Source of the DNA: Escherichia coli
GTDB lineage: Bacteria > Pseudomonadota > Gammaproteobacteria > Enterobacterales > Enterobacteriaceae
Assembly (NCBI RefSeq): GCF_045037415.1
Contig: NZ_CP173438.1
Reading direction: 5' to 3' (one strand)
DNA: 64,000 nucleotides
Under the pieces are notes generated by a model that ran no database searches, had not been told where the DNA came from, and saw only the letters and a program-made list of their open reading frames with translations. Made by a program: the position numbers and the translations under genes. Positions 8,203 through 9,216 of the stretch are shown one piece after another; the first letter of the stretch is position 1; each line of letters begins with the position of its first letter.

Positions 8203-9216
8203 TCAATTATCTTTATGCACTGTAGATGCCATTCTAGCTGCAACTGCAATAGCCCGCTCTGTGGCCAGAGTTTTTGCTATTCCCTTGCCTGCAATATCAA
8301 ATGCAGTGCCATGTTCCGGTGTTGTAATAGCAAATGGAAGCCCTGCGGCTACAGTTATGCCCACATCAAAGGAATGAAGCTTGGTGGCAATCTGTCCCTG
8401 GTCATGGAACAGGGTAACGACAGCATCATATTCATGATTAAATGCATGAATAAAAACAGTATCACCCGGTACTGGGCCATACATATCCATCCCTTTCTCG
8501 CGGAAGCCTTCAATGACCGGAATGAGAACATCAATTTCTTCCTTACCACAGGTTCCTCCATCACCGGCATGAGGATTAAGTGCTGCAACCGCTATTCGTG
8601 GATTTTCAACGGCCGCCATACGTAATGTGTCATAGCATAACTGAATCGAACGACTGACATTTTCTGGTGTAATATGGCTGGCAATATCTTTGAATGGAAT
8701 ATGTCCCGTCACGCGAAAAACCCAGAGGTCACCAAGGACATTCAACAGGCCACGAGGTTTATCCAAATATCCTAACTGCTCAGCAAAGAGATAATGTTCG
8801 TCCTCAATATCCCAGCCCCCCTTCTTGAAAGCTTCTTTATTGAGTGGAGCGAAGACAAAACCGTCAATTTTACCTGATTTAAGTAATGACATACAGGTTA
8901 CCAGTGATTCTCCTGTTGCATAACCTGAGTCGGTATCAATGGTGCCCATAGTTAGTTTTTCGGGATTAAAATTTTTCAAATCAAGTAATGGTACATTTCC
9001 CGTAGTCCAGTCAGCTTCAGTGGGATCACTGATGACATTCCACTGAAAATGCACACCAGCAATCTTTTGTCCAAGAGCAAGTACCCGGGCATCGCCAATC
9101 AGAACAGGTCTGCAATATTTATAGACAGTACCATCAGCTACGACTTTGGCAACCAGTTCAGGTCCAATGCCGGCAGCTTCACCTAAAAAAATGCCCAGTA
9201 CTGGTTTACGTTCCAT
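8203..9216 (-). CDS. PdxA-family NAD-dependent hydroxy-acid dehydrogenase (PdxA2-like), 337 aa
   Basis: Motifs GEAAGIGPE, NPHAGDGG, FHDQG and TPEHGTAFDIAGKG are conserved with the 4-hydroxythreonine-4-phosphate dehydrogenase family. Confidence 0.8.
   Translation of the reverse strand: MERKPVLGIFLGEAAGIGPELVAKVVADGTVYKYCRPVLIGDARVLALGQKIAGVHFQWNVISDPTEADWTTGNVPLLDLKNFNPEKLTMGTIDTDSGYATGESLVTCMSLLKSGKIDGFVFAPLNKEAFKKGGWDIEDEHYLFAEQLGYLDKPRGLLNVLGDLWVFRVTGHIPFKDIASHITPENVSRSIQLCYDTLRMAAVENPRIAVAALNPHAGDGGTCGKEEIDVLIPVIEGFREKGMDMYGPVPGDTVFIHAFNHEYDAVVTLFHDQGQIATKLHSFDVGITVAAGLPFAITTPEHGTAFDIAGKGIAKTLATERAIAVAARMASTVHKDN

What the first reader, a model, noticed from the sequence alone, without database searches (positions are those of the whole stretch)
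8203..9216. PdxA-family dehydrogenase without a cognate four-carbon acid-sugar kinase
Characterised PdxA/PdxA2 enzymes act on 4-phosphorylated four-carbon hydroxy acids and, in catabolic clusters, normally sit next to a DUF1537-type kinase. No kinase is encoded in this locus. Either the enzyme acts on a non-phosphorylated hydroxy acid (a tartrate/malate-dehydrogenase-like oxidative decarboxylation), or the kinase is elsewhere or was lost to IS-mediated deletion; the first case would be a new specificity for this family.
Basis: inference. Interest (0 to 1): 0.55.

Follow-up and report, generated by a model that had tools for sequence, protein, structure and literature searches.

The report
PdxA-like dehydrogenase without phosphate pocket
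This E. coli island gene belongs to a large, unstudied branch of the PdxA enzyme family that has lost the residues that hold a phosphate group, so it most likely oxidises a free sugar acid in a breakdown operon that never contained a kinase.

Summary
ORF 8203-9216 (-) is an intact 337-aa PdxA-family protein (PF04166), and the 64-kb window has no DUF1537 kinase.

- **Active site.** The metal-binding His triad, two Asp and a Lys are kept. The G-H-T / N / R signature is replaced by D-E-H / T / I. Every phospho-substrate member examined has G-H-T / N / R (one has S for N).
- **Clade.** The substitution defines a separate clade: 91 sequences, 100/100 bootstraps, and hundreds of candidate species. 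Public names call nearly all of them 'PdxA'.
- **Operon.** The gene sits in an IclR-controlled operon with a YagE-like 2-keto-3-deoxy-aldonate aldolase, a GarD/UxaA-like dehydratase and a carboxylate permease.
- **No lost kinase.** IS-free Hafnia, and Citrobacter, Salmonella, Klebsiella and Desulfovibrio, carry the same kinase-free operon. In this lineage, rearrangement at the gene's 3' end removed the original MFS permease and an Amidohydro_2 lactonase-like gene.
- **Precedent.** A non-phosphorylated substrate is not new for the family: TphB has solved structures.

The substrate is unknown. My best guess is 3-oxidation, probably with decarboxylation, of a free C4-C6 aldonic acid. I found no support for a tartrate/malate-type reaction. 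I rate this a new variant of a known kind, of moderate interest.

The parts
11895..12731 (+). Divergent IclR-family transcriptional regulator. RefSeq starts it at the ATG near 11967, giving 254 aa.
   Evidence: NCBIfam hits to IclR-type regulators (BhcR 179.5 bits, KdgR 143.7 bits, all below cut-off). 33% identical to XynR/YagI, the regulator of the E. coli xylonate cluster. Conserved next to the operon in Hafnia, Citrobacter, Salmonella and Klebsiella.
10828..11727 (-). DHDPS-family class I aldolase, YagE type. Predicted to cleave a non-phosphorylated 2-keto-3-deoxy-aldonate into pyruvate plus an aldehyde.
   Evidence: Best solved relatives are E. coli YagE, 3n2x/2v8z, E=1e-86. 46% identical to K-12 YagE. 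PF00701 in orthologues.
9294..10811 (-). UxaA/GarD-family sugar-acid dehydratase (SAF + GD_AH domains)
   Evidence: The only NCBIfam hit is galactarate dehydratase, 404 bits, below the 731 cut-off. PDB 6u7l GarD, E=2e-99. 36% identical to K-12 GarD. Pfam PF08666/PF04295/PF20629 in orthologues.
8203..9216 (-). The finding: a PdxA-family dehydrogenase of the 'T-I' clade. It keeps the metal site and has lost the phosphate-pocket signature.
   Evidence: PF04166. H172/H216/H271, D and K279 are kept. E140/H141/T288/I297 stand where PdxA has H136/T137/N283/R292. The clade separates from PdxA, PdxA2 and TphB in 100/100 NJ bootstraps.
7943..8221 (.). Rearrangement breakpoint plus a 260-nt AT-rich spacer. 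Collinearity with the ancestral cluster ends near 8221, inside the last ~6 codons of the PdxA-like gene.
   Evidence: The window is 98.7% identical to E. coli strain 500010 from 8221 to 15000 only. The C-terminus reads ...STVHKDN here and ...STTQK there. Homology to the Salmonella, Citrobacter and Hafnia clusters also stops at the gene's 3' end. Spacer sequence.
6698..7942 (-). MFS permease of the anion:cation symporter (D-galactonate/GarP) type. It is not the ancestral permease of this operon.
   Evidence: TIGR00893, 243.7 bits. 30% identical to GarP. Only 29% identical to the MFS that follows the PdxA-like gene in E. coli 500010, Salmonella, Citrobacter and Klebsiella.

Best explanation
**What it is.** The ORF encodes an intact enzyme of a distinct, widespread clade of the PdxA family. 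I call it the T-I clade; its motifs are HDQGQ...K...G[VI]T...[IVL]T.

**Active site.** It keeps the catalytic core of the family: three metal-binding His, two Asp and the conserved Lys. The G-H-T / N / R signature is replaced by D-E-H / T / I. That signature is present in every member examined that is known, or placed by context, to act on a 4-phosphorylated acid.

**Operon.** It is the dehydrogenase of an IclR-controlled, kinase-free sugar-acid catabolic operon: YagE-type 2-keto-3-deoxy-aldonate aldolase, GarD/UxaA-type dehydratase, this enzyme, and carboxylate permease(s). The ancestral form also has an Amidohydro_2 lactonase-like protein.

**Most likely mechanism.** With NAD(P)+ and a divalent metal, it oxidises the 3-hydroxyl of a free 2,3-dihydroxy sugar acid. 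The substrate would be a C4-C6 aldonate, opened from its lactone by the amidohydrolase where that gene is present. The resulting 3-oxo acid either loses CO2 to give a ketose (for example tetronate to dihydroxyacetone) or is passed to a downstream kinase. The dehydratase and aldolase take the same or a related aldonate to pyruvate plus a small aldehyde.

**Shown.** Family membership, the changed residues, the clade, the conserved kinase-free context, and the rearrangement in this lineage.

**Inferred.** That the changed residues are the phosphate contacts, the reaction, and the substrate class.

**Graded confidence.**
- Non-phosphorylated substrate, and a kinase was never part of the operon: about 0.8.
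- 3-dehydrogenation of a free sugar acid: about 0.5.
- A tetronate such as threonate or erythronate as the substrate: about 0.25.
For: 1. **Residue signature.** E. coli PdxA, Salmonella PdxA2 (2hi1), Burkholderia 4jqp and the canonical paralogue in L024 all have G-H-T, N and R. The canonical paralogue in L058 has G-H-T, S and R. The query and all 80+ relatives fetched have x-E-[DS]-E-x, T and [IVLFM]. His x3, Asp x2 and Lys are invariant in both groups.
2. **Known free-acid member.** TphB, which acts on a free dicarboxylate, also lacks G-H-T/N/R.
3. **Clade support.** The clade splits from the PdxA, PdxA2 and TphB references in 100/100 NJ bootstraps.
4. **Model scores.** All NCBIfam PdxA and PdxA2 equivalog scores are below their cut-offs.
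5. **Conserved kinase-free operon.** It occurs in Hafnia alvei core chromosome with no IS nearby, and in Citrobacter werkmanii, a Desulfovibrio MAG and another contig. Salmonella and K. oxytoca carry the fullest form: IclR/DHDPS/UxaA/PdxA-like/GntP/MFS/Amidohydro_2.
6. **Paralogues side by side.** In L024 and L058 one apparent operon holds both a T-I enzyme and a canonical PdxA next to a DUF1537 kinase. In L052 the T-I enzyme sits in the place of the tetronate dehydrogenase, upstream of an OtnK equivalog and an OtnC-like decarboxylase. In S. meliloti pSymB it sits with a TctCBA transporter and a dihydroxyacetone-kinase-family gene.
7. **Neighbour census over 84 loci.** The commonest neighbours are carboxylate transporters: TctC in 43, TctA in 34, TRAP DctP in 18. 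DUF1537 appears in only 10.
8. **Link to the amidohydrolase.** The same Amidohydro_2 protein accompanies two distant sub-clades. AFDB holds a 668-aa fusion protein with a PdxA-like part that is described as 'Amidohydrolase-related domain-containing' (rank 22).
9. **Parallel cluster in beta-proteobacteria.** There the PdxA-like gene sits with Amidohydro_2, a TRAP system, an enolase-type dehydratase, a DHDPS-like gene and a 2-oxoglutarate semialdehyde dehydrogenase. The dehydratase scores about 625 bits to PDB 3stp. This is the same logic with non-homologous parts.
10. **K. oxytoca.** It has a GldA-family glycerol/glycolaldehyde dehydrogenase divergent to the operon. That fits dihydroxyacetone or glycolaldehyde as products.
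Against: - That His136, Thr137, Asn283 and Arg292 contact the substrate phosphate in E. coli PdxA is my recollection of the UniProt/HAMAP annotation and of Sivaraman et al. 2003. I checked only that those residues exist at those numbers, not the contacts.
- No member of the clade has, to my knowledge, been assayed. Ten literature searches found nothing on it.
- The enzyme's place relative to the dehydratase and aldolase is unresolved. An aldonate 3-dehydrogenase/decarboxylase yields a neutral ketose, which those two enzymes cannot use. So either the operon handles two related acids or the chemistry is different.
- The recurrent pairing and fusion with a lactonase-like protein fits equally well an enzyme that makes a lactone.
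- The new pocket residues are acidic (E-D-E). That argues against a distal carboxylate but does not identify the ligand.
- The clade sample was drawn with clade-specific peptide patterns, so its uniformity is partly by construction.
- In this E. coli lineage the amidohydrolase and the original permease are gone, so the pathway may be incomplete or decaying.
Confidence: 0.6

Rival explanations
1. The enzyme is the first dehydrogenase of a classical non-phosphorylative route. It oxidises a lactol (the C1 of an aldose or of a uronic acid) to a lactone. The Amidohydro_2 protein opens the lactone. The GarD/UxaA-like dehydratase and the YagE-like aldolase finish the pathway to pyruvate plus an aldehyde.
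For: Dehydrogenase, lactonase, dehydratase and aldolase is exactly the four-step layout of the L-fucose/D-arabinose and related routes, and no other dehydrogenase is present in these clusters. The Amidohydro_2 protein's only NCBIfam hit is L-fucono-1,5-lactonase, though weak (76-109 bits). The PdxA-like and Amidohydro_2 genes co-occur in two distant sub-clades and there is an apparent fusion protein. The dehydratase partners are GarD-like or TalrD/GalrD-like in several clusters, which would fit a uronate-to-aldarate route.
Against: Every characterised member of the family that I know oxidises the beta-hydroxyl of a carboxylic acid; lactol oxidation would be new chemistry for this fold. All associated transporters are carboxylate types: ACS-MFS, GntP, TRAP and TTT. 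The TRAP binding protein in L073 is closest to sugar-acid (aldonate) binders, not to the chains I recall (from memory) as uronate binders. In L052, L024, L058 and L094 the context is acid to 3-oxo acid or ketose. Hafnia and this E. coli lineage lack the lactonase.
Confidence: 0.17
2. The enzyme uses NAD+ catalytically, through transient 3-oxidation, as a redox-neutral decarboxylase or 2-/3-epimerase. It prepares the substrate of the dehydratase, for example by turning an ascorbate-derived carboxy-pentonate into a pentonate or L-xylonate into L-lyxonate. The pathway would then be linear.
For: The link to a dehydratase plus DHDPS-family module persists through non-homologous replacement of the dehydratase: UxaA type in enterics, enolase type scoring about 625 bits to PDB 3stp in beta-proteobacteria. 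I recall 3stp as the Labrenzia L-lyxonate dehydratase. Lactonase linkage. From my own knowledge, the related tartrate dehydrogenase carries out a redox-neutral NAD-dependent decarboxylation of meso-tartrate.
Against: Purely inferential. No such activity is known in the PdxA family. The sister groups of the query (L005, L015) have only PdxA-like plus MFS, which suggests the enzyme alone delivers a usable product.
Confidence: 0.1
3. It is a PdxA2-type enzyme acting on a 4-phosphorylated four-carbon acid, and the kinase is encoded elsewhere (for example the core otnK, or a gene lost from the island).
For: otnK is present in 4588 of 5426 E. coli genomes. The island is heavily IS-scarred. Ten of 84 relatives have a DUF1537 gene within 2-7 kb.
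Against: All four signature positions are changed, while canonical paralogues in the same apparent operons keep them. Where checked (L024, L058, L052), the DUF1537 neighbour comes with a second, canonical PdxA or with an OtnK/OtnC pair downstream. There is no kinase in the IS-free Hafnia locus or in the fullest Salmonella and Klebsiella clusters. NF002891 (PdxA2) scores 199 bits against a cut-off of 583.
Confidence: 0.06
4. It is a tartrate/malate-dehydrogenase-like oxidative decarboxylase of a C4 dicarboxylic hydroxy acid.
For: The chemistry is formally compatible with the fold: a beta-hydroxy acid with a carboxylate in place of CH2-O-phosphate. One Halomonas-type cluster has a tartronate-semialdehyde-reductase-like gene nearby.
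Against: The former phosphate site has become acidic (E-D-E-H) and has lost Arg and Asn, which is unfavourable for a second carboxylate. TphB, which does bind a distal carboxylate, has a different set of replacements. The partners are a YagE-type aldolase, a sugar-acid dehydratase, and GntP and aldonate-type transporters. A C4 dicarboxylate would leave the dehydratase, aldolase and lactonase without a role.
Confidence: 0.05

Closest known systems
PdxA2, 4-phospho-D-threonate / 4-phospho-D-erythronate 3-dehydrogenase (decarboxylating); structures 2hi1, 6e85
   Same: Same fold and family (PF04166). 31-34% identity. Same metal-binding His triad, Asp pair and Lys. Probably the same type of reaction: oxidation of the 3-hydroxyl of a 2,3-dihydroxy acid.
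   Different: PdxA2 has G-H-T/N/R, sits next to a DUF1537 kinase and acts after phosphorylation. The query has D-E-H/T/I, has no kinase partner and scores 199 bits against the 583-bit cut-off of the PdxA2 model.
[quoted passage not shown]
   Same: Family and fold. 31% identity. Catalytic core conserved.
   Different: The four signature positions differ. The gene lies in a catabolic island operon, not in surA-pdxA-rsmA, and the genome has its own core pdxA. Scores are below the model cut-offs.
TphB/TpaC, terephthalate 1,2-cis-dihydrodiol dehydrogenase/decarboxylase (4aty; 8zhy-8zj7)
   Same: A PdxA-family member that acts on a non-phosphorylated acid and likewise lacks G-H-T/N/R. It shows the family is not restricted to phospho-substrates.
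   Different: Only 23-24% identity. Different replacement residues (G-Y-P, A, F/L). It sits between ring-hydroxylating dioxygenase genes, and its substrate is an aromatic dihydrodiol. It falls outside the T-I clade.
ApnO, D-apionate oxidoisomerase (EC 1.1.1.421), with the kinase OiaK acting afterwards
   Same: It oxidises a free branched aldonic acid before a DUF1537 kinase acts (reaction described in PMC12994016). This matches the 'dehydrogenase first, kinase later' layout seen in L052, L024 and L058.
   Different: That ApnO belongs to the PdxA family is my recollection. I could not obtain a sequence, and no protein named ApnO appeared among the homologues or fold matches. The window has no OiaK or RuBisCO-like partner genes.
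E. coli yagE-yagF-xynR (Dahms-type D-xylonate) cluster, and the garPLRK-garD galactarate genes
   Same: Operon logic: an IclR regulator, an acid-sugar dehydratase, and an aldolase acting on the non-phosphorylated 2-keto-3-deoxy acid. Identities: aldolase 46% to YagE, regulator 33% to XynR, dehydratase 36% to GarD, permease 30% to GarP.
   Different: Those clusters contain no PdxA-family enzyme and no Amidohydro_2 gene. YagF is an IlvD/Edd-type dehydratase, not a UxaA-type one.
SDR-type L-threonate 3-dehydrogenase Ltn3D (PMC12994016)
   Same: A functional analogue of the proposed reaction. [quoted passage not shown]
   Different: Unrelated fold (short-chain dehydrogenase). In that organism the product goes to a kinase and a decarboxylase.

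Membership tests
PdxA family (Pfam PF04166; isocitrate/isopropylmalate-dehydrogenase-like fold) | Significant match to the family profile over the full length | tested here: met
   PF04166.18 on the 100%-identical protein P0001. NCBIfam PdxA models E=1e-85 over residues 2-334.
PdxA family (Pfam PF04166; isocitrate/isopropylmalate-dehydrogenase-like fold) | Three metal-binding histidines, the two conserved aspartates and the conserved lysine (E. coli PdxA H166, H211, H266, D247, D267, K274) | tested here: met
   H172, H216, H271, D, D and K279 are aligned and invariant across 100+ sequences.
PdxA family (Pfam PF04166; isocitrate/isopropylmalate-dehydrogenase-like fold) | PdxA fold | tested here: met
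   AlphaFold model with pLDDT 82.8. Foldseek top hits are 4jqp, 6e85, 2hi1 and 1ps6 with TM 0.77-0.85.
PdxA proper (EC 1.1.1.262, vitamin B6 synthesis) | Score above the curated equivalog cut-off | tested here: not met
   287.1 vs 470; 255.5 vs 290.35; 226.1 vs 378 bits.
PdxA proper (EC 1.1.1.262, vitamin B6 synthesis) | Substrate-phosphate contacts His136, Thr137, Asn283, Arg292 (their role is taken from my memory of the UniProt annotation) | tested here: not met
   These positions are Glu140, His141, Thr288 and Ile297 in the query.
PdxA proper (EC 1.1.1.262, vitamin B6 synthesis) | Ability to supply 4-phosphohydroxy-L-threonine dehydrogenase activity (rescue of a pdxA mutant) | not testable with these tools
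   Needs a complementation experiment.
PdxA2 (EC 1.1.1.408/409, 4-phospho-tetronate dehydrogenase) | Score above the curated cut-off of NF002891 | tested here: not met
   199.3 vs 583 bits.
PdxA2 (EC 1.1.1.408/409, 4-phospho-tetronate dehydrogenase) | Adjacent DUF1537 four-carbon acid-sugar kinase | tested here: not met
   No DUF1537 homologue in the 64-kb window or in the orthologous clusters of six other taxa.
PdxA2 (EC 1.1.1.408/409, 4-phospho-tetronate dehydrogenase) | G-H-T / N / R signature shared by 2hi1, 4jqp and the kinase-adjacent paralogue in L024 (the one in L058 has S for N) | tested here: not met
TphB-type dihydrodiol dehydrogenase | Close sequence similarity to 4aty/8zj3 and a position inside a ring-hydroxylating dioxygenase cluster | tested here: not met
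   97-104 bits and 23-24% identity. No dioxygenase genes nearby. Outside the clade in the tree.
ApnO-type oxidoisomerase | Clustering with OiaK (DUF1537) and a RuBisCO-like OiaC/OiaX | tested here: not met
   None of these is in the window.
ApnO-type oxidoisomerase | Sequence relationship to a characterised ApnO | not tested
   No ApnO sequence was available. The papers that describe it are not held.
T-I clade defined here | HDQGQ motif, Thr at the PdxA-N283 position, an aliphatic residue at the R292 position, an acidic x-E-[DS]-E-x segment in place of G-H-T, and monophyly | tested here: met

The most novel reading that the evidence does not exclude
The PdxA-fold enzyme and the Amidohydro_2 protein, which may occur fused in some organisms, together form an undescribed front end of non-phosphorylative sugar-acid pathways. 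Either the PdxA fold has been recruited to oxidise a lactol (an aldose or uronate) to a lactone, or it carries out an NAD-dependent decarboxylation or epimerisation that turns ascorbate-derived C6 lactone acids into the pentonates used by the dehydratase. The pentonates then enter a Dahms-type route in enterobacteria and an L-lyxonate/Weimberg-type route in beta-proteobacteria. Either way this would be chemistry not yet known for this family.
Probability: 0.2. Interest if true: 0.7.

Novelty: new variant of a known kind. Interest (0 to 1): 0.5.

Why it matters
- **Annotation.** Hundreds of genomes carry proteins of this clade. [quoted passage not shown] That is very probably wrong and distorts vitamin-B6 pathway predictions. 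The simple residue signature (G-H-T/N/R versus x-E-[DS]-E-x/T/[IVL]) separates the two groups.
- **Biology.** The clade marks uncharacterised, kinase-free uptake-and-breakdown modules for sugar acids in gut enterobacteria, Desulfovibrio, clostridia, rhizobia and halomonads.
- **E. coli.** The three-enzyme core is an accessory trait of the leuX island in about 8% of complete genomes (451 of 5426). It could be a niche-specific nutrient pathway, possibly for breakdown products of dietary ascorbate or plant acids.
- **Payoff.** Identifying the substrate would add a new reaction to the family and assign a function to the whole operon.

Tried and rejected
**Literature.** All ten literature searches found no paper on this operon or clade.
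- PdxA+UxaA returned a BEN2908 genome paper about a different PdxA2+DUF1537 cluster, and an unrelated modelling paper.
- The Edwardsiella TraDIS paper lists unrelated genes.
- PdxA+lactonase gave zero papers.
- The lyxonate search returned only plant ascorbate chemistry.
- Carter 2018 (apiose), Zhang 2016 (DUF1537) and Ghasempur 2014 (L-lyxonate) are not held. Statements about them rest on my memory.
- PMC11123869 mentions a PdxA H136N variant but not the phosphate contacts.

**Dead ends.**
- The 'FlgA' gene next to a Rhizobium relative is not a UxaA-type dehydratase.
- No PADLOC defence hits of note.
- The Hafnia Fe-ADH near the cluster hits an NCBIfam alcohol dehydrogenase model (PRK15138, 759 bits, above cut-off) and sits beside an AraC-family regulator, so it looks like a separate housekeeping gene (I take it for YqhD) and not part of the operon.
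- No remnant of the Amidohydro_2 gene exists in the window.
- P0107/L010 and similar solo homologues gave no informative context.
- A homologue search with the S. meliloti relative returned only automatic 'PdxA' names.

**Ideas rejected.**
- IS-mediated loss of a kinase.
- A vitamin-B6 role.
- A pseudogene. The ORF is intact, 396 of the 451 genomes that hold the three-gene core match it at >=99% identity, and only the last few codons differ from the ancestral form.
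Full report
**Where the window comes from.** The window is Escherichia coli chromosome. Positions from about 15.8 kb onward are core genes: leuX tRNA-Leu(caa) at 15745-15829, then ahr, yjgR, lptFG, pepA, valS, pyrBI, mgtA and others. Positions 1-15.7 kb are an IS-riddled island inserted at leuX. The 8-kb stretch around the finding is 100% identical to many human-derived isolates. The three-enzyme core (8203-11727) is present in 451 of 5426 complete E. coli genomes, always on the chromosome.

**Checking the observation.** An ORF of 337 codons runs at exactly 8203..9216 on the minus strand.
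- Its product carries PF04166 and is named 'PdxA family dehydrogenase' in RefSeq.
- It matches the NCBIfam models for PdxA and for D-threonate-4-phosphate dehydrogenase (PdxA2) over its full length, but always below the curated cut-offs: 287 vs 470, 255.5 vs 290.35, 199 vs 583 bits.
- An AlphaFold model (pLDDT 82.8, pTM 0.86) has the PdxA fold. Its best solved matches are 4jqp, 6e85, 2hi1 and 1ps6, followed by the terephthalate dihydrodiol dehydrogenases 8zhy-8zj7 and 4aty.
- A tblastn search with the E. coli DUF1537 kinase YgbK/OtnK finds nothing in the 64-kb window.

**The operon.** On the minus strand lie three enzyme genes:
- a DHDPS-family gene (10828-11727);
- a UxaA/GarD-family dehydratase gene (9294-10811), 16 nt downstream;
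- the PdxA-like gene, 77 nt further on.

After a 260-nt AT-rich spacer comes an MFS permease of the galactonate/GarP type (6698-7942). A divergent IclR-family regulator sits at 11895-12731.

The DHDPS-family protein is a close relative of E. coli YagE, the aldolase for non-phosphorylated 2-keto-3-deoxy-aldonates (E=1e-86 to 3n2x/2v8z; 46% identity). The dehydratase is 36% identical to GarD. The regulator is 33% identical to XynR, and the permease 30% to GarP.

**Was a kinase lost?** No. Several observations agree.
- Hafnia alvei carries IclR/DHDPS/UxaA/PdxA-like/GntP-permease (PdxA-like 93% identical) between dnaB-alr and housekeeping genes. There is no IS element nearby and no kinase.
- Salmonella and Klebsiella oxytoca carry the fullest form: IclR/DHDPS/UxaA/PdxA-like/GntP/MFS/Amidohydro_2.
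- Citrobacter werkmanii, a Desulfovibrio MAG and a further contig have the same enzymes plus the Amidohydro_2 gene, with a split UxaA in the last two.
- Another E. coli lineage (strain 500010) keeps PdxA-like/MFS/Amidohydro_2.
- The window is collinear with that strain (98.7% identity) only from position 8221 rightwards, which is within the last six or so codons of the PdxA-like gene. To the left it has the AT-rich spacer, an unrelated MFS (29% identity to the ancestral one), a transposase scrap and a truncated PTS IIC gene.

Rearrangement did reshape this locus. What it removed is the original permease and a lactonase-like amidohydrolase. No trace of the amidohydrolase remains in the window.

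**Active site.** I aligned the protein with E. coli K-12 PdxA, with Salmonella PdxA2 and Burkholderia 4jqp (sequences taken), and with 90 relatives.
- The residues equivalent to PdxA His166, His211 and His266 (the metal ligands), Asp247, Asp267 and Lys274 are invariant in every sequence.
- PdxA His136-Thr137 (motif G-H-T-E), Asn283 and Arg292 are listed as substrate-binding residues in the UniProt entry as I remember it, and I take them to hold the phosphate. In the query they are Glu140-His141 (motif E-D-E-H), Thr288 and Ile297.
- I could verify only that the named residues sit at those numbers in PdxA, not the contacts.

An independent, data-driven argument supports the reading. Four sequences known or placed by context to act on a phospho-acid have G-H-T, N and R: E. 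coli PdxA, PdxA2 2hi1, 4jqp and the canonical paralogue next to a DUF1537 kinase in L024. The canonical paralogue in L058 has G-H-T, S and R. TphB acts on a free dicarboxylate and lacks the signature (G-Y-P, A, F/L). All relatives of the query lack it too, and in one uniform way.

**A distinct clade.** A scan of one genome per species with two clade-specific peptide patterns gave more than 574 relatives. The best 80 all show K...T...[IVLFM] and an acidic segment in place of G-H-T. In a neighbour-joining tree, 91 such sequences separate from 14 PdxA, PdxA2 and TphB references in 100 of 100 bootstraps. Because the sampling used clade-specific patterns, the uniformity is partly built in; the separation from the references is not. 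Among proteins with a source name, nearly all are called '4-hydroxythreonine-4-phosphate dehydrogenase' or a close variant.

**What the clade does, judged from context.** A census of neighbours in 84 loci shows carboxylate transporters as the commonest partners: TctC in 43 loci, TctA in 34, TRAP DctP in 18. DUF1537 kinases occur in only 10. The informative cases are these.
- **Ruminiclostridium (L024) and Halalkalibacillus (L058).** One apparent operon holds a T-I enzyme, a DUF1537 kinase and a second, canonical PdxA. The two paralogues therefore have different jobs, and the canonical one is the kinase's partner.
- **Caproiciproducens (L052).** The T-I enzyme, a TIM-barrel isomerase, an OtnK equivalog (414 bits, cut-off 350), an OtnC-like decarboxylase and a CitMHS permease lie together. 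The T-I enzyme occupies the place of the tetronate dehydrogenase that acts before the kinase.
- **S. meliloti pSymB (L094).** GntR regulator, T-I enzyme, TctCBA, a sugar-phosphate isomerase and a dihydroxyacetone-kinase-family protein. This fits acid to ketose to kinase.
- **Clostridial and spirochaete relatives.** They sit with TctCBA, split transketolase and TIM-barrel isomerases; I assigned these families by reading representative sequences.
- **Beta-proteobacteria such as Polaromonas (L073).** The order is LysR, Amidohydro_2, TRAP, T-I enzyme, enolase-type dehydratase, DHDPS-like protein, 2-oxoglutarate-semialdehyde dehydrogenase. The dehydratase scores about 625 bits to PDB 3stp/3ssz/3sqs. 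I recall 3stp as the Labrenzia L-lyxonate dehydratase; this is from memory, not verified. The TRAP binding protein is closest to 4p47 and to 7bbr, which I recall as the sugar-acid binder CxaP.
- **Amidohydro_2 linkage.** The same Amidohydro_2 protein (38-48% identity) accompanies this distant sub-clade and the enteric one. AFDB holds a 668-aa protein, described as 'Amidohydrolase-related domain-containing', that matches the PdxA-like model over 337 columns (rank 22). I read it as a fusion of the two, but I could not inspect its sequence.
- **K. oxytoca.** A GldA-family glycerol/glycolaldehyde dehydrogenase lies divergent to the operon.

**Best explanation.** The enzyme acts on a free, non-phosphorylated hydroxy acid, and a kinase was never part of this operon (about 0.8).

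By family chemistry and by the L052, L024, L058 and L094 contexts, the reaction is most likely NAD(P)+- and metal-dependent oxidation of the 3-hydroxyl of a 2,3-dihydroxy sugar acid (about 0.5). The 3-oxo acid then either decarboxylates to a ketose or goes to a downstream kinase.

A tetronate giving dihydroxyacetone is the most economical specific guess (about 0.25). It is the PdxA2 substrate minus the phosphate and needs no further dedicated enzyme. It also fits the DhaK and GldA neighbours.

The dehydratase and YagE-like aldolase would take a pentonate or hexonate to pyruvate plus glycolaldehyde, glyceraldehyde or lactaldehyde.

Why the two activities are kept together is not settled. They may serve different acids from one source; ascorbate breakdown yields C4 and C5 aldonates and their lactones. 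The two permeases in the full cluster would fit that idea. Alternatively the pathway is linear and the chemistry differs from what I propose.

**Rivals.**
1. **Lactol dehydrogenase paired with the lactonase (0.17).** The enzyme would make the aldonate or aldarate for the dehydratase. This gives a tidy four-step pathway and explains the apparent fusion. It would be new chemistry for the fold and sits badly with the carboxylate transporters and with the L052-type contexts.
2. **Redox-neutral decarboxylase or epimerase feeding the dehydratase (0.10).**
3. **True PdxA2 with a distant kinase (0.06).** otnK is present in 4588 of 5426 E. coli genomes, but the signature residues and the conserved context argue against this.
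4. **Tartrate/malate-type oxidative decarboxylase (0.05).** An acidic pocket and aldonate-type partners argue against it.

**Comparison with what is known.** The protein is a member of the PdxA family. It fails the tested defining features of PdxA, PdxA2 and TphB.

Acting on a non-phosphorylated substrate is not new for the family. TphB has solved structures, and ApnO acts on free D-apionate before a kinase (reaction in PMC12994016; its family membership is from my memory). What appears new is this clade: its signature, its breadth, and its place in kinase-free sugar-acid operons.

I could not exclude that ApnO itself belongs to the clade, which would lower the novelty.

**Verdict.**
- A real feature, correctly located.
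- Interpretation partly right: the free-acid substrate is supported, the lost kinase is refuted, and the tartrate/malate idea is unsupported.
- A new variant of a known kind.
- Interest about 0.5.

Noticed in passing
window 7943-8221, compared with L099 6456-8988: A recombination or rearrangement breakpoint lies inside the last ~6 codons of the PdxA-like gene. Downstream, this lineage has an AT-rich spacer with an inverted repeat (TTATTCCGC...GCGGAATAA) and an unrelated MFS gene. E. coli strain 500010 has the ancestral MFS plus Amidohydro_2 genes there.
   Followed up: yes
window 759-2187: An extra IS110-family element (transposase ORF 818-1951) is inserted relative to the otherwise identical strain 4/1-1. 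It is followed by an IS66-family element (tnpA, tnpB and transposase, 2061-4432).
   Followed up: partly
window 1-758; L001 3116-8746: The window starts in the end of an aldose-1-epimerase gene. That gene belongs to a DeoR / PfkB-kinase / FucP-like permease / epimerase module that looks like the deoxyribose (deoQKPX) locus (my recollection). In the reference strain its PfkB kinase is split by ISEc52. It is a separate module, not the missing kinase of the finding.
   Followed up: partly
window 5206-6105 (-): An N-terminally truncated PTS ascorbate-type IIC gene (matches positions 124-414 of the 415-position model), with a transposase scrap next to it. It is the remnant of another sugar-acid uptake system. 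I did not examine whether it once related to the neighbouring operon.
   Followed up: no
L024 9998-14488; L058 7655-11008: In two Firmicutes lineages one apparent operon carries both a T-I-clade PdxA-like gene and a canonical PdxA/PdxA2 next to a DUF1537 kinase. L024 also has a nickel-pincer (LarA-like) isomerase. This suggests a multi-step tetronate pathway that uses two PdxA paralogues.
   Followed up: partly
L052 9986-16132: Caproiciproducens faecalis has a T-I PdxA-like gene, a TIM-barrel isomerase, an OtnK equivalog, an OtnC-like decarboxylase and a CitMHS permease together. The usual LtnD/DenD-type dehydrogenase of the tetronate pathway appears to be replaced by the PdxA-like enzyme.
   Followed up: partly
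AFDB entry A0A7C2R6D6 (rank 22): A 668-aa protein described as 'Amidohydrolase-related domain-containing' matches the PdxA-like model at 39% identity over 337 columns. I read it as a natural fusion of the two proteins that co-occur in these operons. The sequence could not be fetched, so the domain order and the amidohydrolase part were not checked.
   Followed up: no
L104 7986-12141 (Methylovirgula plasmid): A clade member at 43% identity sits with a GntR regulator and a polar-amino-acid-type ABC transporter instead of a carboxylate permease. Some members of the clade may act on hydroxy amino acids.
   Followed up: no
window about 30080-31680: A sharp G+C dip (0.35 against about 0.5) coincides with a frameshifted 'DNA-binding protein' pseudogene between argF and tabA in the core chromosome.
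   Followed up: no
window 12930-15560: The island edge next to leuX holds only debris: fragments of IS4/Tn5 and IS66 transposases, a phosphoethanolamine transferase fragment and a truncated tyrosine integrase. The island is probably immobile.
   Followed up: no
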